DNA of 20,745 bases from Gammaproteobacteria bacterium (GTDB lineage Bacteria > Pseudomonadota > Gammaproteobacteria > Thiohalomonadales > Thiohalomonadaceae): contig JALOAT010000060.1 of NCBI GenBank assembly GCA_023228645.1, positions 1 to 20,745 of the forward strand, given 5' to 3'. Position 1 is the stretch's first letter. Each line of letters starts with the position of its first letter. Positions 728 to 18,343 of the stretch are shown piece after piece. The notes under the pieces are model-generated. The model worked only from the letters and a program-made list of their open reading frames with translations, was not told the DNA's origin and ran no database searches. A program made the position numbers and the translations under genes.

Positions 728-1116
728 TAGCTATGAATAGCTATGCTGATCTTAAAAAGAAATATGAAGATCAATTCAAAAATGGCGAACTTTTAGGCCA
801 TAGTGAATTAGCGGAAACTTATAGAGACAGTAACACGTTATGGTTAAAGATTAAAAACAGGCATTCTGGCAACATAGTGCAATCTAATGTTATTGAAGCT
901 ATTTTTGATTGGTCGGAATATGTTGGTATTAGAACTGAAAGCTCATTGTTGAGAAATCCACTTGGATGGCGACGTCATCCAAGTATTATGTTTTGTGATG
1001 AGTATTTTACTGCAATATTTCCAAGATATGATTGGCAGAAAACCGCAGCAATAATTACTTGGGGTGAGTATTTTACGACGAGAAAATTAAATGTTCCTTC
1101 GAGCCAAAGTTATTGA
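724..1116 (+). CDS. hypothetical protein (130 aa)
   Basis: ORF from the track. Its start overlaps the upstream stop (ATGA-type junction). Confidence 0.5.
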   Translation: MIAMNSYADLKKKYEDQFKNGELLGHSELAETYRDSNTLWLKIKNRHSGNIVQSNVIEAIFDWSEYVGIRTESSLLRNPLGWRRHPSIMFCDEYFTAIFPRYDWQKTAAIITWGEYFTTRKLNVPSSQSY

Positions 1117-1420
1117 AGTCAACAATCATTTCGATATTTCTATGATTTCATCTATTGTTATTGGTACTAATGATGCTGATGGTTTTAAGCGATGGATGGA
1201 TAGAAATTATTTGTTTATTACGCTTGGCAGTTTTGGCACGATGGTTTGTCCAGTTGCTAATTTTGATCAATATGTAAAGCTACTATACCAAAGAAGTAAC
1301 CAACCTAACATTGATAAAATTATTAAAAAGTGGGGAATTTATGACCCAAATCAAAAAACTTTTCTTGAAAAAACAAAAGGGTGGTTGACATTCAATTTTG
1401 GTTCGTTTATAGACGTGTAA
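1091..1420 (+). CDS. hypothetical protein (109 aa). It overlaps the upstream ORF by 26 nt in the +1 frame.
   Basis: ORF from the track. The overlap could be a later true start, a frameshift or a sequencing error. Confidence 0.4.
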   Translation: MFLRAKVIEVNNHFDISMISSIVIGTNDADGFKRWMDRNYLFITLGSFGTMVCPVANFDQYVKLLYQRSNQPNIDKIIKKWGIYDPNQKTFLEKTKGWLTFNFGSFIDV

Positions 1421-1421
1421 T

Positions 1422-1494
1422 GCCTCTGTAGCTCAGTGGATAGAGCGCCGTGCTTCGAACGCGGAGGTCGTAGGTTCGATCCCTACCAGGGGCT
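1422..1494 (+). tRNA. tRNA-Arg (anticodon TCG)
   Basis: Manual fold. Acceptor GCCTCTG/CAGGGGC (one G-U pair). D-arm GCTC-AGTGGATA-GAGC. Anticodon stem CCGTG/CGCGG with loop CTTCGAA, so U33 and anticodon UCG. Variable region AGGTC. T-arm GTAGG-TTCGATC-CCTAC. Discriminator T. CCA is not encoded. Confidence 0.9.
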
Positions 1495-1513
1495 CAAATG
1501 ATAGGAGAGAATA

Positions 1514-2215
1514 ATGTCAGTTAGAGCAGCTTTAGCAAAACTTGCCGCGTGTGCGTGTGGATGTGCGGTTATTGGCGGCGGCGCCGTTCACGTCGCTGAA
1601 GCACAACGCCCAGGTATTTTGAAAACTGTTAAGCCTGTCAAAACGGCTAAACATACTCCATCACGCACTGTTAGACGACACCGCACGGTTGTTACTTATA
1701 GACCAAGTCGTACAGAACCGGTTCAATCAGCCCAAGTTACTCAGGTTATAAATGTTATGCCGCAAGCATTGCCAGAGCAGCAAATGGTCAATGCTGGTGG
1801 CGGCGCGACGGCGACGGTTGTTAGTGGTAGTTCTGGTTCTTCTGGATTTTCTGGATCGTTTGGCGGCTTTGGCGGCGGCTTTTTTGGTGGTTCGAGTGGC
1901 GGTTCAGTAATCATATCATCCACCTCAAGTGGTAGTACAAGTACGTCGACTAGTTCTAGTTCTTCATCAAGTTCAAGTACATCAACGAGCTCGAGCACTT
2001 CTGGTGGTATTAGCACATCTGGTGGTTTTGGCTCGTCAAGTTCTTCGTCGAGTAGTACAAGTGGTGGGTGGTCAACTTCTACGTCAGGGGGATCGACTGG
2101 AAATCCACCAGTCGACGTTCCTGAACCGTCTTCAGTAATTTTGTTTGGATTGGGAGTTTTGGGTCTAATTGTAGGCAGGAAGCTTTCAACCCCCAAGAGA
2201 GATACCATAAGCTGA
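1514..2215 (+). CDS. secreted Ser/Gly/Thr-rich repeat protein with a C-terminal PEP-CTERM-type sorting signal (233 aa)
   Basis: N-terminal signal-peptide-like segment MSVRAALAKLAACACGCAVIGGGAVHVAEA. A long G/S/T low-complexity core. C-terminus ...PPVDVPEPSSVILFGLGVLGLIVGRKLSTPKR = a VPEP motif, a hydrophobic helix and a basic cluster. SD AGGAGAG upstream. GC is clearly higher than in the flanks. Confidence 0.6.
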   Translation: MSVRAALAKLAACACGCAVIGGGAVHVAEAQRPGILKTVKPVKTAKHTPSRTVRRHRTVVTYRPSRTEPVQSAQVTQVINVMPQALPEQQMVNAGGGATATVVSGSSGSSGFSGSFGGFGGGFFGGSSGGSVIISSTSSGSTSTSTSSSSSSSSSTSTSSSTSGGISTSGGFGSSSSSSSSTSGGWSTSTSGGSTGNPPVDVPEPSSVILFGLGVLGLIVGRKLSTPKRDTIS

Positions 2216-2541
2216 GCTATCGCGGGGCAACTCGAGGAAGTTCAGGATTGGCGTGGGAAACGAGTGGGAGAGGTAGTAGGCTTGGATCAGTATGTCAAGC
2301 CGAAGAATGCCATAGTAAGACGTATCGTTCTTTGCTATGGTTCTCGCTAATCACCACCGTGATTGAGCCAACAAGCCAAACAGGACCTGGCAATTTCCCA
2401 GTTATAGGTCCGGGTTGGTGCAGCCCTGAAGCGATAAGCTTCGTGGATAATTCCGGGGCCAGACGTATGTCTGAGACGAATGATAGCATAATACAGAATC
2501 CTGGCTATAGGCTTATGGTAACTTGAAAGAAAGGCAAATAA

Positions 2542-3242: not shown

Positions 3243-4468
3243 TGTCGGTTCACATTTTTGGCGGTGGAACCTTTTTTCACGTTCGCAACCATATGGCGCT
3301 TTGCGCACCAGCATTTGGTAAAACTGCTCGATATATTAATACCTTTTATGACGATGCATTCTTGCATTTGACAAAAATGGCTGATCCAAATTCAATTCTT
3401 GATACCAATGAAGATGTTGAATATAAGCTTGATAAGCTCATTGAGGATCCTTATTGCAAGATCATCTATTTCAATGTTGCACTTTGTGATTATGAGGGAT
3501 CTATCTTGGATGGCACTCTTGAAGATTGTATAACTCCATCAGGAAAATACGCTCCTCGACTTAAAACTCGAGAAGGTCTACAGCATATGCGCCTCACGCC
3601 GGCAGCTAAGTTGATTGGCAAGATTCGCAAGACTCGCAAGGATATTTTTGTTGTTGGATTTAAGACGACCTGCAACGCAACACCTGATGAGCAATATCTT
3701 GCAGCATTGAATATGTTGAAAGAAAATTCTATCAACTTGGTTCTCGCGAACGATACAGGTAATCGTCGAAATATGATTGTTGCTCCAGAAGAAACTCGCT
3801 ATTGCGTTACTACTGATCGAAATAAAGCACTTACAACTTTGGTAGAAATGACCAATAGCAGGTCTCGAAACACTTTTACCCGATCGACGGTAATTGATGG
3901 CGATCTTGTTCCTTGGAATTCAAATGAAATTCCTGACAATTTGCGACAGGTGGTCAATCACTGCATCAAAAGAGGAGCATACAAGCCCTTCCGGGGATCA
4001 ACTGCTGGTCACTTTGCAGTCAAGGTGAATGAACACGAAGTTTTGACATCTGTTCGCAAGACAAATTATAATGATTTGGATAAAAGCGGATTGGTTCGAA
4101 TTGAATACGACGGTCTCGATAAAGTCATTGCGCACGGCGCGAAGCCAAGTGTTGGAGGTCAGAGTCAGAGAATTGTGTTTGACGAGCATCCAGATTTGGA
4201 CTGTATTGTACATTTCCATTGTCCTACTAAGGAAAATGTTCGTGATTCGCTATCACACGTGGATCAGGCGCCATCAGAATGCGGGTCACACCAATGCGGG
4301 TCAAGAACATCAAAAGGATTAAAGTCTTTTGGGAATCTGGAAGCAGTGATGCTTGATAATCACGGGCCAAATATTGTCTTTTCTAAGGATACCCCAGCTC
4401 AAGAAGTTATTGATTTTATTGAAGCAAACTTTGATCTTGAAGCTAAGACTGGTGGCTTGGTAAGTTAA
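3236..4468 (+). CDS. two-domain enzyme: N-terminal CoaB/DFP-like (phosphopantothenate-cysteine ligase-like) domain fused to a C-terminal class II aldolase/adducin-like (FucA/MtnB-like) domain
   Basis: N-terminal IFGGGTFFHVRNHMALCAPAFGKTARYI is reminiscent of the CoaB motif [24 protein letters not shown]. Further on, DIFVVGFKTTCNATPDEQYLAALNMLKENSINLVLANDTGN is reminiscent of CoaB ...YVVGFAAETNNV...KNLDLICANDVSQ. C-terminal GSTAGHFAVKV...AHGAKPSVGG...HPDLDCIVHFHCP...LDNHGPNIV parallels the class II aldolase motifs GTAGNVSVR / KLPSSEW / AVVHNHAVH / LLQHHG. The His metal ligands are retained, but the conserved Glu is VGG here. The alternative start ATG at 3242 has better SD spacing. Confidence 0.6.
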   Translation: MLMSVHIFGGGTFFHVRNHMALCAPAFGKTARYINTFYDDAFLHLTKMADPNSILDTNEDVEYKLDKLIEDPYCKIIYFNVALCDYEGSILDGTLEDCITPSGKYAPRLKTREGLQHMRLTPAAKLIGKIRKTRKDIFVVGFKTTCNATPDEQYLAALNMLKENSINLVLANDTGNRRNMIVAPEETRYCVTTDRNKALTTLVEMTNSRSRNTFTRSTVIDGDLVPWNSNEIPDNLRQVVNHCIKRGAYKPFRGSTAGHFAVKVNEHEVLTSVRKTNYNDLDKSGLVRIEYDGLDKVIAHGAKPSVGGQSQRIVFDEHPDLDCIVHFHCPTKENVRDSLSHVDQAPSECGSHQCGSRTSKGLKSFGNLEAVMLDNHGPNIVFSKDTPAQEVIDFIEANFDLEAKTGGLVS

Positions 4469-4479
4469 TTCTTACCAAG
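4456..4479. terminator. 9-bp perfect hairpin (CTTGGTAAG-TTAATT-CTTACCAAG) spanning the convergent stop codons of 3236..4468(+) and 4465..5310(-)
   Basis: Inverted repeat seen directly. There is no clean T-run on either side, so its role as a bidirectional terminator is tentative. Confidence 0.35.
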
Positions 4480-5310
4480 CAACTCTTTCCAAGTAATTTG
4501 AATTCCGCGTTTTTTGTAAGCCTCGACTGGATTTGAATAAACTCCGGTTGGGGTTTCATTATTTCTAAAATATGTCAACCATTCTCTTGATGTTTTTGAA
4601 TTTGTTGATTTGAAATATTCTTTAAATTCATCCAATGGCATAATATTTTCCATATAACGTTGTGATAATGCTTCTTGTGCTTTAATTTGGGCCTCCGTTT
4701 TTGGCAATCCTTTTCTTTTTAAAGACCATCGCTTTTTAGTTTCTTCGGAATGTTTATAGCCTTTACGCTTTTCGGCAATTTCTTTATATTGCTCGTCAGA
4801 CAACAATTTTCGTCCCTTTAATGAATTGCTAATTTTTTTCTTTGTTTCTTCGGATATGGTGCGCCCTTTTTGATGTTGTGGGGCCGCCATCTGTGCTTCA
4901 GTTTTTGGTTTACCTTTTCGCTGTTGGCTTAATAATTGCTTGGTAGATTCTGAATGAATCATTCCAGCAGTGCTTTCGCCACCATTCGTTAAGTTACTCA
5001 ATGGCCCTAAATTTAAATTATATCTTCCAATAACTTTAATGAAATGTATTTCCCACAATTGTGCTTCTTGTTTGGAAAGATTTTCTTTTAATTTAATAAT
5101 TATCGGTTTCTGGCCTAAATCTAATATATGTTTAATTTTTCCATTTTTTATAGGATTACAATTAGAATTCAAGCTGTCAGTTTTTAAATGAGCTTGATAT
5201 CGTTTACCTTTGCCCATTCCAATATAAAATGGCTCAAAATCAAAATTTTCTCCATTATAAGAAAAATTTCCTGGCTTTCTTGGATCTAAATATGCGTAAA
5301 CATAAAACAT
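4465..5310 (-). CDS. GIY-YIG homing endonuclease with NUMOD3-type repeats (free-standing, opposite strand to its neighbours)
   Basis: N-terminus MFYVYAYLDPRKPG...PFYIGMGKGKRY carries the GIY...YIG motifs. Central repeats (SEETKKKISNSLKGRK; SEETKKRWSLKRKG) are NUMOD3-like. C-terminal tail NPVEAYKKRGIQITWKEL is shared with the second endonuclease. Confidence 0.8.
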   Translation of the reverse strand: MFYVYAYLDPRKPGNFSYNGENFDFEPFYIGMGKGKRYQAHLKTDSLNSNCNPIKNGKIKHILDLGQKPIIIKLKENLSKQEAQLWEIHFIKVIGRYNLNLGPLSNLTNGGESTAGMIHSESTKQLLSQQRKGKPKTEAQMAAPQHQKGRTISEETKKKISNSLKGRKLLSDEQYKEIAEKRKGYKHSEETKKRWSLKRKGLPKTEAQIKAQEALSQRYMENIMPLDEFKEYFKSTNSKTSREWLTYFRNNETPTGVYSNPVEAYKKRGIQITWKELLGKN

Positions 5311-5373: not shown

Positions 5374-5613
5374 ATGTCAGATACTGAAAGTTATTATTCT
5401 ACCCATAATGCTGTTTGGAGCGAATCGAAGGGTGAATGGATTGAATATGAAAATTCAAATCCACCATTTCGAACCAAATTTCCAATGTGGCTTATTGTAG
5501 GAGCATATGAGATTTGGATTCTTCCAATTCTTCGCTTCCCTGCCAAGATTGAAGCTGCTATTACTCGAAAGCTTGATCGTATGGATGAAAACCATCAGAA
5601 TCGAGCCAGGTAA
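5374..5613 (+). CDS. hypothetical protein (79 aa)
   Basis: ATG at 5374 is preceded by SD TGGAGA. The track start at 5344 would overlap the -10 element. Confidence 0.5.
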   Translation: MSDTESYYSTHNAVWSESKGEWIEYENSNPPFRTKFPMWLIVGAYEIWILPILRFPAKIEAAITRKLDRMDENHQNRAR

Positions 5614-6313: not shown

Positions 6314-6378
6314 GCAGTCTTAGTTTAAGATAAAATATTGATTAATCAATGATCTAGGTTCAAATCCTGGCGACTGTA
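6314..6378 (+). other. tRNA-like degenerate element: acceptor-like stem, D-arm-like and T-arm present, but the anticodon arm is replaced by the palindrome ATTGATTAATCAAT
   Basis: 5' GCAGTCT-TA-GTTT-AAGATA-AAAT, then the palindrome (6337-6350), then CTAGG-TTCAAAT-CCTGG-CGACTGT-A. The acceptor pairs 6/7. There is no 7-nt anticodon loop. Confidence 0.3.
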
Positions 6379-8155: not shown

Positions 8156-8509
8156 GTGAAATTCATCTTGGAATTCTCTGATTCAGATTTTGAAGAAAAA
8201 GGATGGGAACGTCCATCAACTGAATTTTCGTTCGACTTGAATCTACCATTTGATTATGATAGTGACGCTTGGTGGGATTGGGATGACAGTGTTCTTCTTG
8301 ATCAAGTTAGTGATATGGAAGAGTACGGCGTTCACGATTACACAGCTGGCGGCGATAAAGATGGAAATTGGACTCAATTTGGATATCATTCCTATGAAAT
8401 CAAGCAAGATAAATGGGAAGAAGTAGTTCAAAAATGGCACGAATGGTTTGTTGAGCAAGGTTTTCGGCCTGGTGAAATTACATCGGAAGAAATTAAGGAA
8501 GAAGAATAA
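8156..8509 (+). CDS. acidic, Trp-rich hypothetical protein (117 aa); GTG start
   Basis: SD AGGAG 7 nt upstream of the GTG. The protein is strongly acidic. Confidence 0.5.
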   Translation: MKFILEFSDSDFEEKGWERPSTEFSFDLNLPFDYDSDAWWDWDDSVLLDQVSDMEEYGVHDYTAGGDKDGNWTQFGYHSYEIKQDKWEEVVQKWHEWFVEQGFRPGEITSEEIKEEE

Positions 8510-8925
8510 TGGAAGTTTTAGTTACTACTGTTGGCGCGGTTCGTGATCACGGCGATACTCTTACTATCGTGACAGTTGGTGAGCACGAAGTTGTCGCTAA
8601 CAAGAAGGAAGATGGGACCCCGCGATGGACTGCTGGAGAACTTGTTGTTTATGTCCCAGAAGGGGCCATCATTCCAGATGATGTGCTCAAAGAGCGTGGA
8701 TATTGGGATGAAGTAAAGGGTAAGGGCTTGCTTGAAGGCAAGCGTGGAAATCGTGTGAAAATGCGTCGTTTTGCTGGCTTCGAATCTCGCGGTTTATTGT
8801 TCAAAGTTCTTCCATCAGTAGATGCGATTCCGGAAAATCATATTCAGCGTGGCTGTGATTACCAAGGCGTGAACTTGGGTGATAATGTTATGGAATTTCT
8901 TGGAATTACGGAGCATACTGTATGA
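8509..8925 (+). CDS. tRNA-binding OB-fold domain protein (CsaA/Trbp111/EMAP-like, tRNA_bind family), stand-alone (138 aa)
   Basis: VGAVRDHGDTLTIVTVGEHEVVANKK...GELVVYVPEGAIIPDDVL...KMRRFAGFESRGLLF follows the tRNA_bind pattern (vG-V...L-v-Vd-G...vVsGa...Ga-lP...klRGv-SeGML). Assigned from motif memory only. Confidence 0.5.
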   Translation: MEVLVTTVGAVRDHGDTLTIVTVGEHEVVANKKEDGTPRWTAGELVVYVPEGAIIPDDVLKERGYWDEVKGKGLLEGKRGNRVKMRRFAGFESRGLLFKVLPSVDAIPENHIQRGCDYQGVNLGDNVMEFLGITEHTV

Positions 8926-9155: not shown

Positions 9156-9504
9156 CTACGCAGGTATTCGTTCAGTCAAAGCTGGAGAAAAAATCATACC
9201 TATAGTTTGGGTGAAGGATATTGATATTTCGACCATAGAAGAAGGTCATATTACTATATCTACATATGAGGGAGAAATACATAAATCATATGGATTTGAT
9301 GCTATTGAAACCGTTATGGTTTTTAAGCCGAGTGCTCTTGAAGGTCGACGCCTAAAGTGGAAAAAGAATGCTTGGCGTTTTCATAACTTCATAATTCACC
9401 CACTTTTAGAAATCCTTTCAACATTAGGTTTCAAACGCCAAGCGGTGAGATTACACGATTGGGGTACTCCAACGCCTCGTGGATTTAAAGATACTTCTTC
9501 TTAA
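9124..9504 (+). CDS. hypothetical protein (126 aa)
   Basis: ORF from the track. Its 3' end overlaps the convergent endonuclease gene by 20 nt. Confidence 0.45.
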   Translation: MLPTRPKMMINYAGIRSVKAGEKIIPIVWVKDIDISTIEEGHITISTYEGEIHKSYGFDAIETVMVFKPSALEGRRLKWKKNAWRFHNFIIHPLLEILSTLGFKRQAVRLHDWGTPTPRGFKDTSS

Positions 9505-10369
9505 TTTCCATCCAAGATGTTTTAATTCCTCTTCTTGAATATGCCACTATCGGATTTCGTGGTATGTTGTTAGGAAGTGGATTGTTATTAATATATTCTT
9601 GCCATTTTGAATAACTATTGACATTGATAGATTTTAGAAAAAATAGAAAATCTTCGAAACTGATATAGTTTTCTCTTAATTTCTCTTTAGTCTCATCTGA
9701 AAGTTTTTTACCAAGATTGGCCTTTCGTAGTTTTTCTTTAACGCTGTCAGGTCTTGTTCTACCTGTCAATGCTACTCTTATCTTTTCAATAGACTCAGCT
9801 GATGGCTTGGCTCGATTTATTGCTGATCGTCTAAGTATTTCTTTGGTTTTTTCAGAAGCTTTAGATCCTTTTTTAGCCTTACTTATTTTGGCTTTAGCTT
9901 CATCAGTATGACCTTTGCCCAATCGCGCAGCTTGTATGGATAAAACTTGCTTTTCGCGATAAACTGGATCATTCCACTTGGAAGTTTGTATTTCACTTTT
10001 AGTTTTGGCAACATTATTTTTAGCGTAGTTCTTCTTATAAGTAGTTTTTTGTTTTTCGATACTACGTTCATCATTATAGAAATTAGTTCTACCGATTTGC
10101 TTATTAAGCCACTGGTTTGAACTGTGACAATGAAAACACTCTTGAAATTTAATTTCTAAATTTATGATCTGATCAACACCGCCAGCAGCTAAGATTTCAA
10201 TCACATCTGGCTCGCCATTAAATGCTCGGAATTCTTTCACATAATGACTTGATGTGAAATATGTTTTCCATAAATTTGATGGATGAGCACTTTTTCCATA
10301 TTGGCATCCAACATACCATTTGTCTATTTTAGACCATCCAATTATGTAAAGATAAGGCAAATTTTCCAT
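9485..10369 (-). CDS. second free-standing homing endonuclease (GIY-YIG-like N-terminus, NUMOD3-type repeats, C-terminal tail shared with the 4465..5310 endonuclease)
   Basis: N-terminus LYIIGW...KWYVGCQ. Repeats (SEIQTSKWNDPVYREK; DEAKAKISKAKKGSK; AESIEKIRVALTGRTR; DSVKEKLRKANLGKK; DETKEKLREN). C-terminal NPIVAYSRRGIKTSWMEI matches NPVEAYKKRGIQITWKEL of the first endonuclease. Confidence 0.7.
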   Translation of the reverse strand: MENLPYLYIIGWSKIDKWYVGCQYGKSAHPSNLWKTYFTSSHYVKEFRAFNGEPDVIEILAAGGVDQIINLEIKFQECFHCHSSNQWLNKQIGRTNFYNDERSIEKQKTTYKKNYAKNNVAKTKSEIQTSKWNDPVYREKQVLSIQAARLGKGHTDEAKAKISKAKKGSKASEKTKEILRRSAINRAKPSAESIEKIRVALTGRTRPDSVKEKLRKANLGKKLSDETKEKLRENYISFEDFLFFLKSINVNSYSKWQEYINNNPLPNNIPRNPIVAYSRRGIKTSWMEIKKKYL

Positions 10370-11676: not shown

Positions 11677-11706
11677 TTGACAATGAACTAGTCCTTGTAC
11701 TATAAT
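11677..11706 (+). promoter_or_regulatory. consensus sigma70 promoter TTGACA-18-TATAAT driving the non-coding tRNA-like cluster
   Basis: TTGACA at 11677-11682 and TATAAT at 11701-11706. No ORF follows for about 370 nt. Confidence 0.65.
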
Positions 11707-11814
11707 GATCCAATAAGGGCTAGTTTAGAGGCGTAAGACACCTCGCTGATGACGCCAATCGAGAAGAACGGCAAACCGGGAGGGACCGGGAGTTTATCAG
11801 TAAAACGTTTGTTT

Positions 11815-11914
11815 AGGTCTTTAGTGTAATGGAAGCACTTTATTAGCAGGCACTTAATTTATTAGGACCTGGTAAGCGGAAATAAGAGTCACGGTTCGAT
11901 CCCGTGAAGACCTG
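11815..11914 (+). tRNA. tRNA-like gene with canonical acceptor, D- and T-arms but a 36-nt anticodon region (about 29 nt excess); anticodon not assignable, so either an intron-like insertion or a disrupted tRNA
   Basis: Acceptor AGGTCTT/AAGACCT, 7/7. T8 A9. D-arm GTGT-AATGGAA-GCAC. Anticodon stem TTATT (11840-44) paired with AATAA (11881-85), enclosing AGCAGGCACTTAATTTATTAGGACCTGGTAAGCGGA. Variable GAGT. T-arm CACGG-TTCGATC-CCGTG. Discriminator G. A direct repeat TTTATTAG occurs twice inside. Confidence 0.45.
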
Positions 11915-11949
11915 CAAAACCTAGTAGCGTAGGAATGAGATACTTCGAT

Positions 11950-11994
11950 AGGAAAACCTTCGTGTCGCTGGTTCGATTCCAGCTCTCCCCACCA
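11950..11994 (+). pseudogene. 3' half of a tRNA-Phe(GAA)-like gene with genomically encoded CCA
   Basis: Reads loop AGGAAAA, stem CCTTC, variable GTGTC, T-arm GCTGG-TTCGATT-CCAGC, acceptor TCTCCCC, discriminator A, then CCA. It is near-identical in layout to an enterobacterial tRNA-Phe 3' half as I recall it (GTGTC variable loop, TTCGATT T-loop, A73). Confidence 0.5.
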
Positions 11995-12002
11995 GCTTTT
12001 AT

Positions 12003-12045
12003 GGGGAGATAGCTCAGACGGTAGAGCAGAGGAAAGAAAAACTTG
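12003..12045 (+). pseudogene. 5' half of the same tRNA-Phe-like gene, lying 8 nt DOWNSTREAM of its 3' half (permuted or tandem-decayed arrangement)
   Basis: GGGGAGA-TA-GCTC-AGACGGTA-GAGC-A-GAGGA-AAGAAAA-ACTTG. The 5' acceptor is the exact complement of the upstream TCTCCCC. The anticodon-stem 5' strand GAGGA pairs 4/5 with the upstream CCTTC. The loop holds GAA at 34-36 but A33 in place of U33. Confidence 0.5.
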
Positions 12046-12087
12046 TTTCGCTTTTATCTCTAGGTTTCTTTTTTAGGATGTGGGAAG

Positions 12088-17587: not shown

Positions 17588-18343
17588 ATGATCCCGGTGT
17601 ATAATGTGAATGGCTTACCATTCTGGTCTCAAGAAGACATCAAACTTAGAAATTATCTGAAGGATCATTTTGCATCCAAAGTATTTGGAATTCTTGAACA
17701 GGAGAATCCAGCTTGGAAGATGCTTGAAATTGAAGCACCACTTCTAACACCAGTAAGTTTAATCAATCCAAACTACACAAATGAAGATGTGTGGATGCAA
17801 GAACGTATGGATAATGAGATTAACCATTTAGTTCTTCGTCCAGAAACGACTCCTGGTTCATATGCCTATGCTAAGCATCTTTTAGAATCGCATTCAATTT
17901 ACAAGCCACCATTTATTGTCTGGCAGGCAGGTAAAAGCTTCCGTCGCGAGCAGGACCAAGTTAGTAAGAATATGCGTTTGAAGGAATTCTATCAACAAGA
18001 ATTCCAGTGCATCTACACTGCTGACACTATGAATGATTATCACACTGCTGTTCTTGATCCAATCAAGGATATGTTGGCAGATGCCTGCAATCTAAGTGCT
18101 CGAGTGATTGCCAGTGACCGTCTTCCTTCATATAGTGAGATTACGATGGATGTTGAGGTATTCAACGGTGACAAATATATGGAAGTTTGCTCCATCAGCC
18201 GCCGCACTGATTTCCCAACTAAAGCAAGATTCCAAACCAAGAAAGGTTTGGTAGAGAAAGATTTGATGGTTCTTGAAATTGCTATTGGTTTGGACCGCGT
18301 GATCTATAATAGGAATCATATTGACAGATCACGCCCATTTTAA
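17588..18343 (+). CDS. truncated class II aminoacyl-tRNA synthetase-like catalytic core (HisRS/HisZ-like), lacking an anticodon-binding domain (251 aa)
   Basis: LVLRPETTPGSYAYAKH matches HisRS LTLRPEGTAGCVRAGIEH. FIVWQAGKSFRREQDQVSKNMRLKEFYQQEFQCIY matches motif 2 ([27 protein letters not shown]). C-terminal ...CSISRRTDF...AIGLDRVIY resembles motif 3 (GGGRYD...AMGLERLVL). All compared against HisRS from memory. Confidence 0.6.
   Translation: MIPVYNVNGLPFWSQEDIKLRNYLKDHFASKVFGILEQENPAWKMLEIEAPLLTPVSLINPNYTNEDVWMQERMDNEINHLVLRPETTPGSYAYAKHLLESHSIYKPPFIVWQAGKSFRREQDQVSKNMRLKEFYQQEFQCIYTADTMNDYHTAVLDPIKDMLADACNLSARVIASDRLPSYSEITMDVEVFNGDKYMEVCSISRRTDFPTKARFQTKKGLVEKDLMVLEIAIGLDRVIYNRNHIDRSRPF

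What the first reader, a model, noticed from the sequence alone, without database searches (positions are those of the whole stretch)
11815..11914. Otherwise canonical tRNA with an about 29-nt insertion in the anticodon loop
The acceptor stem is perfect (7/7). U8, A14, A21, the GG in the D-loop and a textbook T-arm are all present. Yet the anticodon stem TTATT/AATAA encloses 36 nt instead of 7. No contiguous deletion restores a loop with U33. Bacterial tRNA introns are large group I introns, and short introns belong to archaea and eukaryotes. This is therefore either a novel short intervening sequence, an unusual elongated anticodon-domain RNA, or a gene disrupted by insertion. The internal direct repeat TTTATTAG (x2) hints at a duplication event. 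The gene sits in the same promoter-driven transcript as the permuted Phe-like gene.
Basis: seen in the sequence. Interest (0 to 1): 0.6.

Follow-up and report, generated by a model that had tools for sequence, protein, structure and literature searches.

The report
Phage tRNA mimic lacking an anticodon
A giant uncultured phage carries a conserved, tRNA-shaped small RNA whose anticodon loop is replaced by a long structured hairpin. It cannot read codons, it sits in one transcript with a Y-RNA-like tRNA mimic, and it is most likely a protein-binding or processing RNA rather than a broken or intron-containing tRNA.

Summary
Window 11815-11914 is a clean cloverleaf with a 7/7 acceptor stem, D arm and T arm. 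Its 5-bp anticodon stem encloses 36 nt, and no deletion restores a U33 loop.

It is neither a pseudogene nor an intron. Eight diverged variants from related phage contigs all keep the 36 nt, although third codon positions of the flanking genes are near saturation. The insert folds into a covarying arm: 5 bp, a 9-nt purine-rich 3'-strand bulge (GURARCGRA), 4 bp, 5 bp, and a UYUA tetraloop. All 238 pair cells are standard pairs, and 7 pairs show compensatory change.

The "permuted Phe-like gene" downstream is a YrlA-type Y-RNA-like module. A third structured module lies upstream. All three sit behind a perfect sigma-70 promoter.

Best reading: a non-decoding tRNA mimic, probably cut out by RNase P and tRNA 3'-end enzymes. 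Its arm is a capped stem-bulge-stem with a CG(A/G)A bulge, like the Ro60-binding stem of Y RNAs. That would make it the tRNA-order counterpart of a permuted YrlA. The structure is shown. The processing and the protein partner are inferred. No Ro60, RtcB or complete RNA ligase gene lies within the 40 kb inspected.

Verdict: a new variant of a known kind.

The parts
11677..11706 (+). Sigma-70-type promoter (TTGACA, 18 nt, TATAAT) for the three-module non-coding transcript
   Evidence: 12/12 consensus match. A TTGACA / TATATT-type promoter sits at the same place in relatives, although the surrounding sequence is only 42-49% identical.
11728..11801 (+). Module 1: a conserved structured leader RNA. 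It has a hairpin at 11728-11744 and a three-way junction at 11745-11801. One hairpin loop carries AAUCGAGAAGAA.
   Evidence: RNAalifold on 5 variants gives 23 pairs, 3 with compensatory change. It is 79-87% identical to relatives. No Rfam match.
11815..11914 (+). The finding: a tRNA-shaped RNA in normal tRNA order, with an open 7-bp acceptor stem, discriminator G11914 and no anticodon loop
   Evidence: Sequence. Rfam tRNA 39.4 bits. On 8 variants, 30 pairs with 238/238 cells paired, 7 compensatory pairs and 0/500 shuffles reaching the observed values.
11815..11821 (+). Acceptor stem, 5' strand. It pairs with 11907-11913. U at -1 (11814) is the expected RNase P site context.
   Evidence: One U-A to U.G change occurs in L026.
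11824..11838 (+). D arm GUGU-AAUGGAA-GCAC, with A14, G18G19 and A21
   Evidence: Stem invariant in all 8 variants; the D loop loses one A in L027/L028, and G18 is A in L028. The same 15-mer is the D arm of a Y-RNA-like module in L025.
11840..11844 (+). Anticodon-stem equivalent, 5' strand UUAUU. It pairs with 11881-11885 (AAUAA).
   Evidence: U-A changes to C-G in L015 (compensatory) and to U.G in L027/L028. An alternative junction is equally compatible: 3 bp, then a 7-nt bulge GCGGAAA, then 3 bp.
11845..11880 (+). The 36-nt 'insert', which is the extended arm. It consists of AG, helix CAGG (11847-11850) / CCUG (11868-11871), CA, helix CUUAA (11853-11857) / UUAGG (11862-11866), tetraloop UUUA (11858-11861), A, then the bulge.
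   Evidence: Three pairs in the inner helices show changes on both sides (G-C/A-U/G.U; C-G/U-A/U.G; A-U/G-C). All cells are paired. Single-sequence folds of all 8 variants give the same hairpin.
11872..11880 (+). A 9-nt purine-rich bulge on the arm's 3' strand: GUAAGCGGA, consensus GURARCGRA. It reads CGGA here and CGAA in 4 of 8 variants. It is the candidate protein-contact site.
   Evidence: Alignment A4. The CGAA-in-bulge, stem-bulge-stem arrangement is the hallmark used for Ro60-binding Y RNAs (PMC4201824; PMC12135203).
11890..11906 (+). T arm CACGG-UUCGAUC-CCGUG
   Evidence: Three compensatory pairs. U54 U55 C56 and A58 are invariant.
11915..12074 (+). Its parts are: outer helix 11917-11924 / 12060-12067; internal loop UAGCGUA (11925-11931) / GCUUUUAUCU (12050-12059); second helix 11932-11939 / 12042-12049; V hairpin 11947-11966; T arm 11967-11983; 7-bp acceptor hairpin 11984-12009 with loop ACCAGCUUUUAU; D arm 12010-12028; U tail 12068-12074.
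   Evidence: Rfam YrlA 37.6 bits, E 1e-6 for the region and 3.9e-5 for the window, below the gathering score of 69. RNAalifold gives 39 pairs, 10 compensatory. A mycobacteriophage YrlA next to its Ro-like gene scores 39.8 bits.

Best explanation
The element is a functional, non-decoding tRNA mimic. It is neither a tRNA gene with an intron nor a damaged gene.

**Shown.**
- It folds as a tRNA cloverleaf with an open 7-bp acceptor stem and normal D and T arms.
- Its anticodon loop is replaced by a conserved, covarying arm of about 14 bp. The arm carries a 9-nt purine-rich bulge (GURARCGRA) on its 3' strand and ends in a UYUA tetraloop.
- It lies between two other conserved structured RNAs behind one strong sigma-70 promoter. 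The downstream one has the architecture of a YrlA-type Y RNA.

**Inferred, step 1.** Host RNase P cuts at 11814/11815 and tRNA 3'-end enzymes cut after G11914. This releases the roughly 100-nt RNA. It also creates the 3' end of module 1 and the 5' end of the Y-RNA-like module, 2-3 nt before that module's terminal stem.

**Inferred, step 2 (weaker).** The arm is a protein-binding stem-bulge-stem of the kind that binds Ro60/Rsr in Y RNAs, but capped by a hairpin. The RNA would then be the tRNA-order counterpart of the permuted YrlA next to it: acceptor open and stem capped, versus acceptor capped and stem open. It would tether a Ro60-like or other protein to factors that recognise the tRNA body.
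For: **Selection.** There are 8 distinct variants from contigs whose flanking proteins are 62-83% identical and whose third codon positions are 45-57% identical. The insert is 75-94% identical, and the promoter region only 42-49%.

**Structure.**
- 30 pairs, 238/238 cells paired, 7 pairs with changes on both sides: 1 in the anticodon stem, 3 in the arm, 3 in the T stem.
- 0 of 500 shuffles reach the observed values, and slid controls give 37-54% paired.
- The same arm appears in single-sequence folds of all variants.

**Not a decoder.** The terminal loop has 4 nt, and no deletion gives U33.

**tRNA body.** Rfam tRNA 39.4 bits, above the gathering score of 29. U8, A14, G18G19 (G18 is A in L028), A21, U54U55C56 and A58 are conserved, and position 48 is a pyrimidine in 7 of 8 variants.

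**Processing.**
- U is at -1.
- The 3' trailer is G-C(A/U/C)A. Several genuine tRNAs of this phage have an N73-CAA trailer.
- The next module's closing helix starts 3 nt after G73.
- No + strand terminator-like site lies between the modules.

**Y-RNA context.**
- Module 3 matches Rfam YrlA at 37.6 bits and has the YrlA architecture with 10 compensatory pairs.
- The YrlA next to the Ro-like gene of mycobacteriophage LeBron scores 39.8 bits.

**Arm compared with the Ro60 site.**
- The arm is stem, large bulge, stem, with CGAA in 4 variants and CGGA in 4.
- The bulge lies on the strand that runs into the T arm. This is the topological equivalent of the Y RNA 5' strand, which carries GNCGAAN0-1G (PMC4201824). 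In phage phiLo Yrl1/2 it is the 'large internal bulge harbouring the CGAA motif' (PMC12135203).
- The element's D arm plus 5 following bases recur in a Y-RNA-like module directly upstream of a protein with a Ro60 fold in L025.
Against: - There are no expression or end-mapping data. Every step after the structure is inference.
- No TROVE, DUF2828 or RtcB gene lies in the roughly 40 kb inspected. The rest of the 465-kb contig could not be read.
- The GNCGAA motif is matched only as RRCGRA (4-5 of 6 positions). A CGRA tetramer in a 9-nt loop has a chance expectation of about 5%.
- The sequence echo between the arm's 3' strand and module 3's 5' strand is not robust: shuffle p is 0.08 in the window, below 0.001 in L026, and not significant elsewhere.
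- By definition Y RNAs bind Ro60 on a stem made by their own 5' and 3' ends. This arm is a capped hairpin.
- All 8 variants come from one phage clade, so the covariation rests on few independent events.
- No copy was found in IMG/VR, INPHARED or GTDB genomes.
- RNase P and RNase Z need only the acceptor/T minihelix, so processing alone does not explain the conserved arm.
Confidence: 0.6

Rival explanations
1. It is only a processing handle. The tRNA-like body exists solely so that RNase P and tRNA 3'-end enzymes separate module 1 from the Y-RNA-like module, as with MALAT1/mascRNA or the MHV68 tRNA-miRNA genes. The released tRNA-like piece would have no function of its own.
For: It sits exactly between two structured RNAs. 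The Y-like module's closing helix begins 3 nt after the discriminator. A second anticodon-less tRNA-like RNA at 6314-6378 also abuts about 200 nt of conserved non-coding sequence.
Against: Cleavage needs only the acceptor/T minihelix and the elbow. Yet the 36-nt arm and its bulge are about as conserved as the tRNA body (75-94% against 84-92%) and are maintained by compensatory changes. That pattern implies the arm has a function of its own.
Confidence: 0.17
2. It is a decoy or sponge for host factors that recognise the tRNA body. Candidates are tRNA-targeting defence nucleases or nucleotidyltransferases, modification enzymes, the CCA-adding enzyme and EF-Tu. The arm would make it useless to the ribosome.
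For: The elbow nucleotides and the open acceptor end are intact. The phage invests heavily in tRNA biology: at least 13 genuine tRNAs nearby, plus PTH2 and an aaRS-like core. Jumbo phages are known to counter attacks on tRNAs (PMC7824862).
Against: Most known tRNA-directed defence nucleases cut anticodon loops, and this RNA has none. A decoy does not explain the specific conserved bulge sequence. No cognate system has been identified.
Confidence: 0.1
3. It is a chargeable, non-ribosomal adaptor. An enzyme that ignores the anticodon would aminoacylate the free acceptor end, for example the phage's 251-aa GlyRS-like class II core at 17588-18343. The product would be used outside translation.
For: It has an open 7-bp acceptor stem with a discriminator. 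A class II catalytic core with no detected anticodon-binding domain is encoded 5.7 kb downstream. The window holds two anticodon-less tRNA-like RNAs.
Against: No CCA is encoded, except by chance in L027/L028. From general knowledge, the acceptor (A1-U72, G73) does not match bacterial tRNA-Gly identity (G1-C72, U73). There is no linkage beyond being in the same genome region. The activity of the aaRS-like protein was not tested.
Confidence: 0.06
4. It is a tRNA gene with a short intervening sequence that is removed to give a decoding tRNA. ARAGORN in intron mode proposes tRNA-Leu(UAA) with a 7-nt intron at position 31/32 and a 25-nt variable arm.
For: ARAGORN -i returns that model. A protein resembling the N-terminal OB domain of DraRnl-type RNA ligases is encoded at 8509-8925.
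Against: - ARAGORN's anticodon stem is only 76% paired across the variants, shows no compensation, and has one position never paired. Its loop has C33 in most variants.
- The covarying pairs tie the 'intron' to the 'variable arm'.
- No contiguous excision yields U33.
- There is no bulge-helix-bulge geometry, and the insert is too short for a group I intron.
- The ligase-like protein lacks any nucleotidyltransferase domain, in the window and in relatives.
- No endonuclease or RtcB lies within 40 kb.
Confidence: 0.04
5. It is a tRNA pseudogene disrupted by an insertion or duplication.
For: TTTATTAG occurs twice in the window copy.
Against: The insert is present and under purifying selection in all 8 variants, with compensatory substitutions. 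The repeat is not conserved. A conserved strong promoter drives the locus.
Confidence: 0.02

Closest known systems
YrlA (bacterial and phage Y RNA-like A; Rfam RF02553; Chen et al. 2014, PMC4201824; Wang et al. 2018, bioRxiv 10.1101/312249)
   Same: Both are tRNA mimics with conserved D and T arms and an L-shape core, and both lack an anticodon loop. In both, a long irregular stem with a CGAA-type motif on the strand entering the T arm takes the place of the anticodon arm. YrlA is found in phages and is co-transcribed with other small RNAs. The immediate neighbour (module 3) is of this type.
   Different: YrlA is circularly permuted: its acceptor stem is closed by a loop and its 5' and 3' ends form the Ro60-binding stem. 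This element is in native tRNA order, with an open 7-bp acceptor stem and a hairpin-capped arm. The motif is only RRCGRA. No Ro60 gene was found nearby.
Deinococcus radiodurans Yrn1 (PMC4201824)
   Same: It is a Y RNA that can be drawn as a tRNA in non-permuted order, with a T arm and an 'anticodon arm' that does not decode (5-bp stem, 6-nt loop).
   Different: In Yrn1 the Ro60/Rsr site is in the terminal stem at the acceptor position, and the anticodon-like arm is short. Here the acceptor stem is an ordinary tRNA acceptor, and the elaborated part is the anticodon arm.
Thermus phage phiLo Yrl1/Yrl2 with phage Ro60 (PMC12135203)
   Same: These are phage-encoded small RNAs defined by a stem, a large bulge containing CGAA, and a second stem. 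They bind a phage Ro60 and host PNPase. This gives a precedent for a phage hijacking host RNA decay through Y-like RNAs.
   Different: The phiLo RNAs lie directly upstream of the Ro60 gene and are not described there as tRNA-shaped. Binding is shown there and not here.
mascRNA/MALAT1 and MEN-beta tRNA-like elements; MHV68 tRNA-miRNA (TMER) genes (general knowledge; the lncRNA case is also summarised in bioRxiv 10.1101/312249)
   Same: These are cloverleaf tRNA-like elements without a working anticodon loop, embedded in longer non-coding transcripts. RNase P and/or RNase Z cut them to mature the flanking RNAs, and CCA is added afterwards.
   Different: They are eukaryotic or herpesviral. Their anticodon arms are short and poorly conserved, not an elaborated conserved arm.
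Phage T4 RNAC and RNAD, small stable RNAs from the tRNA gene region (PMC3014915)
   Same: They are small RNAs of unknown role transcribed from a phage's tRNA gene region.
   Different: T4 has no reported Y RNA link.
tRNA introns: archaeal/eukaryal bulge-helix-bulge introns and bacterial group I introns in tRNA-Leu(UAA) and tRNA-fMet (general knowledge)
   Same: They place extra sequence inside the anticodon arm of an otherwise normal cloverleaf.
   Different: Those introns leave a 7-nt loop with U33 after removal. They also have defined splice-site structure or a catalytic core of more than 200 nt. None of this applies here.

Membership tests
Canonical (decoding) tRNA | 7-bp acceptor stem, D and T arms with conserved core nucleotides, score above the tRNA model threshold | tested here: met
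   Sequence. Rfam tRNA 39.4 bits against a gathering score of 29. The core nucleotides are conserved in the 8 variants, except G18, which is A in L028.
Canonical (decoding) tRNA | 7-nt anticodon loop with U33 and a purine at position 37 | tested here: not met
   The stem encloses 36 nt. The arm ends in a 4-nt loop, and no variant has a 7-nt loop. Default ARAGORN does not call it.
Intron-containing tRNA (bulge-helix-bulge type) | Removing the intron restores a 7-nt loop with U33. The splice sites lie in two 3-nt bulges on opposite strands of a 4-bp helix. | tested here: not met
   No contiguous deletion gives U33. The 4-bp helix CAGG/CCUG is flanked by 2/9-nt and 2/1-nt internal loops, not 3-nt bulges. 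ARAGORN's intron model is contradicted by covariation.
Intron-containing tRNA (group I intron) | A self-splicing core (P1-P9) of more than about 200 nt inside the anticodon loop | tested here: not met
   The insert is 36 nt. No intron family matches in Rfam.
Intron-containing tRNA (any) | The mature RNA lacks the intervening sequence | not testable with these tools
   This needs RNA-seq or a northern blot.
Y RNA / YrlA (asked of the element itself) | A long stem formed by the RNA's own 5' and 3' ends that carries the Ro60 site; a permuted order of T arm, closed acceptor hairpin, D arm | tested here: not met
   The element is in native tRNA order with an open acceptor stem. The long stem is a capped hairpin.
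Y RNA / YrlA (asked of the element itself) | GNCGAAN0-1G / CGAA motif in a bulge on the strand leading to the T arm | tested here: inconclusive
   The bulge is GURARCGRA on the correct strand. CGAA occurs in 4 of 8 variants and CGGA in 4. The full 6-mer is matched at 4-5 of 6 positions.
Y RNA / YrlA (asked of the element itself) | Encoded next to, and bound by, a Ro60/Rsr (TROVE) protein | tested here: not met
   Adjacency is not met. No TROVE or DUF2828 gene lies in the roughly 40 kb around the locus. The rest of the 465-kb genome, and binding itself, cannot be tested with these tools.
YrlA (asked of the neighbouring module 3, 11915-12074) | Permuted tRNA-like domain (V, T arm, closed acceptor hairpin, D arm) on a long terminal stem; Rfam gathering score | tested here: inconclusive
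   The architecture is met, with 10 compensatory pairs. The Rfam YrlA score is 37.6 bits, E 1e-6, below the gathering score of 69. A phage YrlA beside a Ro-like gene scores 39.8 bits. The motif is GCGUA rather than GCGAA, and no Ro60 gene is nearby.
tRNA-like processing element (mascRNA / TMER type) | A cloverleaf without a functional anticodon loop, embedded between other non-coding RNA segments of one transcript | tested here: met
tRNA-like processing element (mascRNA / TMER type) | Cleavage by RNase P at the 5' end, by RNase Z or exonucleases at the 3' end, and CCA addition | not testable with these tools
   Only the substrate features are visible: a 7-bp acceptor stem, U at -1, an intact elbow, and a G73-C-N-A trailer like those of the phage's own tRNAs.

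The most novel reading that the evidence does not exclude
The element would be a third topology of Y RNA: a Ro60-type (or other) protein-binding stem-bulge-stem grafted onto the anticodon position of a tRNA that keeps a free, processable and possibly CCA-tailed or chargeable acceptor end. It would be the un-permuted form from which permuted YrlA RNAs could arise by tandem duplication, or the reverse. Together with modules 1 and 3, it would form a phage-encoded three-RNA set that captures host Ro60/PNPase or tRNA-handling enzymes during infection by a 465-kb phage.
Probability: 0.3. Interest if true: 0.7.

Novelty: new variant of a known kind. Interest (0 to 1): 0.52.

Why it matters
tRNA mimics are a small, well-defined class that includes tmRNA, viral tRNA-like structures, YrlA and mascRNA. 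Each has shown how cells and viruses reuse the tRNA fold.

This element is a phage-encoded mimic under clear selection. It keeps the tRNA ends but swaps the decoding loop for a conserved arm, and it is made together with a Y-RNA-like mimic of the opposite topology. If the arm binds a Ro60-like protein, the pair would document both circular permutations of one design in a single operon. It would also give a simple system for asking what the tRNA module of Y RNAs recruits.

There is a practical point as well. Standard tRNA finders either miss such genes or, in intron mode, mislabel them as tRNA-Leu with an intron. tRNA counts and 'suppressor or intron' calls in huge-phage genomes therefore need this check.

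Tried and rejected
**Searches for the locus elsewhere.**
- Nucleotide searches of the locus and the whole window against 50,697 phage records found nothing.
- Five pattern or protein scans of IMG/VR found no copy. They gave nothing, or only 4 coding-sequence false positives.
- One scan of GTDB genomes found nothing.
- The single metagenome scan returned one contig, L025. It is not a homologue of the element. It is a Y-RNA-like array that shares its D arm.

**Structural alternatives.**
- ARAGORN's intron model, tRNA-Leu(UAA), was rejected by covariation.
- Two-piece or permuted tmRNA was rejected. Default ARAGORN finds none, and the Rfam tmRNA_permuted match is only 21 bits and covers only the T arm and acceptor hairpin of module 3. 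At a relaxed threshold ARAGORN reports a tag with 'Tag not identified'.
- By inspection, the 2/9 internal loop fits neither a K-turn nor a sarcin-ricin motif (AG rather than GA on the short strand).
- I considered base-pairing between the arm's bulge and module 3's CGCUU loop. L015 and L026 give it no covariation support, so I dropped it.

**Sequence echo.** The similarity between the arm's 3' strand and module 3's 5' strand is significant only in L026, so it is kept as a lead and not as evidence.

**Candidate partner proteins.**
- The flanking 160-aa and 123-aa proteins have no Pfam, NCBIfam or PHROG match.
- Pfam gene tables show no TROVE, DUF2828 or RtcB within about 40 kb. tblastn with the L025 DUF2828 protein also found nothing.
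- The 'RNA ligase' hit at 8509-8925 covers only the N-terminal OB domain. Neighbouring ORFs, here and in L005, have no ligase domain.

**Paralogues.** The covariance model of the element found none in 157 kb of session loci.

**Not possible.** I could not read the other roughly 425 kb of the 465-kb source contig.
Full report
**1. The observation.**
- acceptor AGGUCUU/AAGACCU (11815-11821 / 11907-11913), 7/7;
- U8, and D arm GUGU-AAUGGAA-GCAC;
- a 5-bp stem UUAUU/AAUAA (11840-11844 / 11881-11885) enclosing 36 nt (11845-11880);
- a 4-nt variable loop;
- T arm CACGG-UUCGAUC-CCGUG;
- discriminator G11914.

Default ARAGORN and the Rfam gathering run miss it. With permissive filters the Rfam tRNA model matches 11815-11914 over its full length at 39.4 bits (gathering score 29), with 38 nt in place of 9 consensus positions. 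No contiguous deletion leaves a 7-nt loop with U33.

**2. Source and relatives.**
- The window matches no deposited phage.
- Exact-protein look-ups place it on metagenomic contigs of up to 465,559 bp (ENA ERZ27247376 k141_1276970). NCBI labels one as a Gammaproteobacteria MAG.
- The gene content is that of a very large phage. It has small same-strand ORFs, GIY-YIG/NUMOD3 homing endonucleases, UvrD, ClpP, PTH2 and a GlyRS-like class II core. At least 13 genuine tRNAs lie within 10 kb of the window.
- Homologues of the downstream 123-aa protein (70-83% identity) led to related contigs with the same gap of about 415 nt between the same two genes.
- These gave 8 distinct versions of the element.

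**3. The insert is selected and structured.**
Between the window and its relatives, third codon positions of the flanking genes are 45-57% identical and the promoter region 42-49%. The 36-nt insert is 75-94% identical, about the same as the tRNA body.

The arm runs as follows:
- anticodon-stem equivalent, 5 bp;
- internal loop, AG on the 5' side and the 9-nt GUAAGCGGA on the 3' side;
- helix CAGG/CCUG;
- small internal loop, CA / A;
- helix CUUAA/UUAGG;
- tetraloop UUUA.

On the 8 variants, the cloverleaf plus this arm has 30 pairs and 238 of 238 cells are standard pairs. Seven pairs show changes on both sides: 1 in the anticodon stem, 3 in the arm helices and 3 in the T stem. None of 500 shuffles reaches the observed values, and slid controls give 37-54% paired. 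Each variant folds into the same hairpin on its own.

A slightly different junction fits equally well: 3 bp, a 7-nt bulge GCGGAAA, then 3 bp.

ARAGORN's intron-mode model is tRNA-Leu(UAA) with a 7-nt intron at 31/32 and a 25-nt variable arm. Its anticodon stem is only 76% paired and shows no compensation, so I rejected it.

No variant has a 7-nt loop or an uninterrupted tRNA. The TTTATTAG repeat is not conserved. The pseudogene and intron readings therefore fail.

**4. The surroundings.**
- A 12/12 sigma-70 promoter (11677-11706) precedes three conserved structured modules, with no + strand terminator-like site between them.
- Module 1 (11728-11801) is a hairpin plus a three-way junction with compensatory changes.
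- Module 3 also has the YrlA architecture: a terminal stem with internal loops, a V hairpin, a T arm, a 7-bp closed acceptor hairpin and a D arm, with 10 compensatory pairs.
- For calibration, the YrlA directly after the Ro-like gene of mycobacteriophage LeBron scores 39.8 bits. Sub-threshold scores are therefore normal for phage YrlA RNAs.
- YrlA RNAs are circularly permuted tRNA mimics that partner Ro60/Rsr, and they are known in phages (PMC4201824; bioRxiv 10.1101/312249; PMC7824862).

**5. How it most likely works.**
*Shown:* a conserved, non-decoding, tRNA-shaped RNA with an elaborated arm.

*Inferred, processing.* Four features fit release by RNase P and tRNA 3'-end enzymes:
- a 7-bp acceptor stem stacked on a normal T arm;
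- an intact elbow;
- U at -1;
- a G73-C-N-A trailer like the N73-CAA trailers of several of this phage's own tRNAs.

The same cuts would define the 3' end of module 1 and the 5' end of the Y-like module, whose closing helix starts 3 nt after G73.

*Inferred, the arm.*
- Processing does not need the arm, so its conservation implies a function of its own.
- Its layout is stem, large purine-rich bulge, stem. The bulge reads CGAA in 4 variants and CGGA in 4.
- The bulge lies on the strand that runs into the T arm, which corresponds to the Y RNA 5' strand. That strand carries GNCGAAN0-1G in YrlA (PMC4201824). In the phage phiLo Y-like RNAs it carries the 'large internal bulge harbouring the CGAA motif', and those RNAs bind phage Ro60 and host PNPase (PMC12135203).
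- Topologically, the element is the neighbouring YrlA with the opposite end closed.

This reading is attractive but unproven, for four reasons:
- The motif match is partial.
- A sequence echo between the arm and module 3 is significant in only one variant.
- No Ro60-like, RtcB or complete ligase gene lies within about 40 kb.
- I could not read the rest of the genome.

**6. A side result that bears on context.**
- The one metagenome hit to the element's D arm plus 5 following bases (L025) carries two tandem YrlA-like modules. They sit directly upstream of a DUF2828+DUF7788 protein.
- A model of that protein (pLDDT 86) matches only Ro60/TROVE structures at the top of a PDB fold search, including the phiLo Ro60.
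- Relatives of this protein occur in 706 phage records, often annotated 'RNA-binding protein'. In Felixounavirus Alf5 the gene sits directly upstream of the tRNA cluster.
- Ro60-like proteins are thus common in tRNA-rich large phages. This makes a partner elsewhere in the 465-kb genome, or in the host, plausible.

**7. Comparison with known families, and novelty.**
- The element fails the defining test of a decoding tRNA, because it has no anticodon loop.
- It fails the tests for tRNA introns.
- It fails the formal definition of a Y RNA, because its stem is not made by its own ends, it is not permuted, and no Ro60 gene is adjacent.
- It works most like a YrlA or Yrn1-type tRNA mimic, and its position resembles the mascRNA type of processing element.
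- I found no description of such an RNA in the searchable literature.
- I rate it a new variant of a known kind, of moderate interest. The structure is solid, the function is inferred, and all evidence comes from one phage clade.

Noticed in passing
window 6314-6378 (+), and the conserved non-coding stretch to about 6590: This is a second anticodon-less tRNA-like RNA (Rfam tRNA 40.5 bits). Its anticodon stem UUGAU/AUCAA closes a 3-nt loop UAA, and its trailer is A-CAA. L005 keeps the cloverleaf with compensatory changes but has a non-canonical T loop. About 200 nt of conserved non-coding sequence follows, ending in a terminator-like hairpin.
   Followed up: partly
Its 7-bp acceptor hairpin has a loop that begins A-CCA in the window and L026, and A-CAA in the other variants. 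It could therefore be cut by RNase P into a two-piece RNA, as M. smegmatis YrlA is.
   Followed up: partly
window 11728-11801 (+): Module 1 of the same transcript is a conserved hairpin plus three-way junction with covariation and no Rfam match. One hairpin loop, AAUCGAGAAGAA, is invariant in 4 of the 5 variants compared.
   Followed up: partly
L025 (OIYR01007851.1) 2127-2353 (-) and 754-2058 (-): Two tandem YrlA-like modules lie directly upstream of a DUF2828+DUF7788 protein whose predicted structure is a Ro60/TROVE + vWA ring. Homologues occur in 706 phage records, including Lak megaphage, Felixounavirus, KVP40-like, Listeria, Staphylococcus and mycobacteriophages. I found no paper linking DUF2828 to Y RNAs.
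   Followed up: partly
window 8509-8925 (+): A 138-aa protein matches only the N-terminal OB domain of DraRnl-type RNA ligases (PHROG 968, E 2e-9; TIGR02306, E 7e-6). It is conserved as a stand-alone gene in L005, and no nucleotidyltransferase domain is encoded nearby.
   Followed up: partly
window 17588-18343 (+): A 251-aa class II aminoacyl-tRNA synthetase catalytic core is closest to GlyRS (NF003211, E 1e-15; PDB 8u2q, E 3.5e-10). No anticodon-binding domain was detected.
   Followed up: partly
L023 4131-4215 (+), about 6-7 kb upstream of the window start: ARAGORN calls an 85-nt tRNA-Gln(UUG) with a long GC-rich variable arm, which is unusual for a Gln tRNA. Several phage tRNAs and tRNA-like RNAs have an N73-CAA trailer where others encode CCA.
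   Followed up: no
window 4465-5310 (-) and 9485-10369 (-): Two free-standing homing-endonuclease genes (GIY-YIG + NUMOD3, and NUMOD3) lie on the opposite strand. Both are absent from the corresponding places in the L005/L006 relatives.
   Followed up: no
L031 (Escherichia phage Alf5, NC_031082.1) locus 4167-4240, 4992-5065 and 5394-5472: Rfam tRNA matches of 48, 55.6 and 31.7 bits are not annotated in the record. They lie in the tRNA cluster directly downstream of the phage's Ro60-like 'RNA-binding protein' gene.
   Followed up: no
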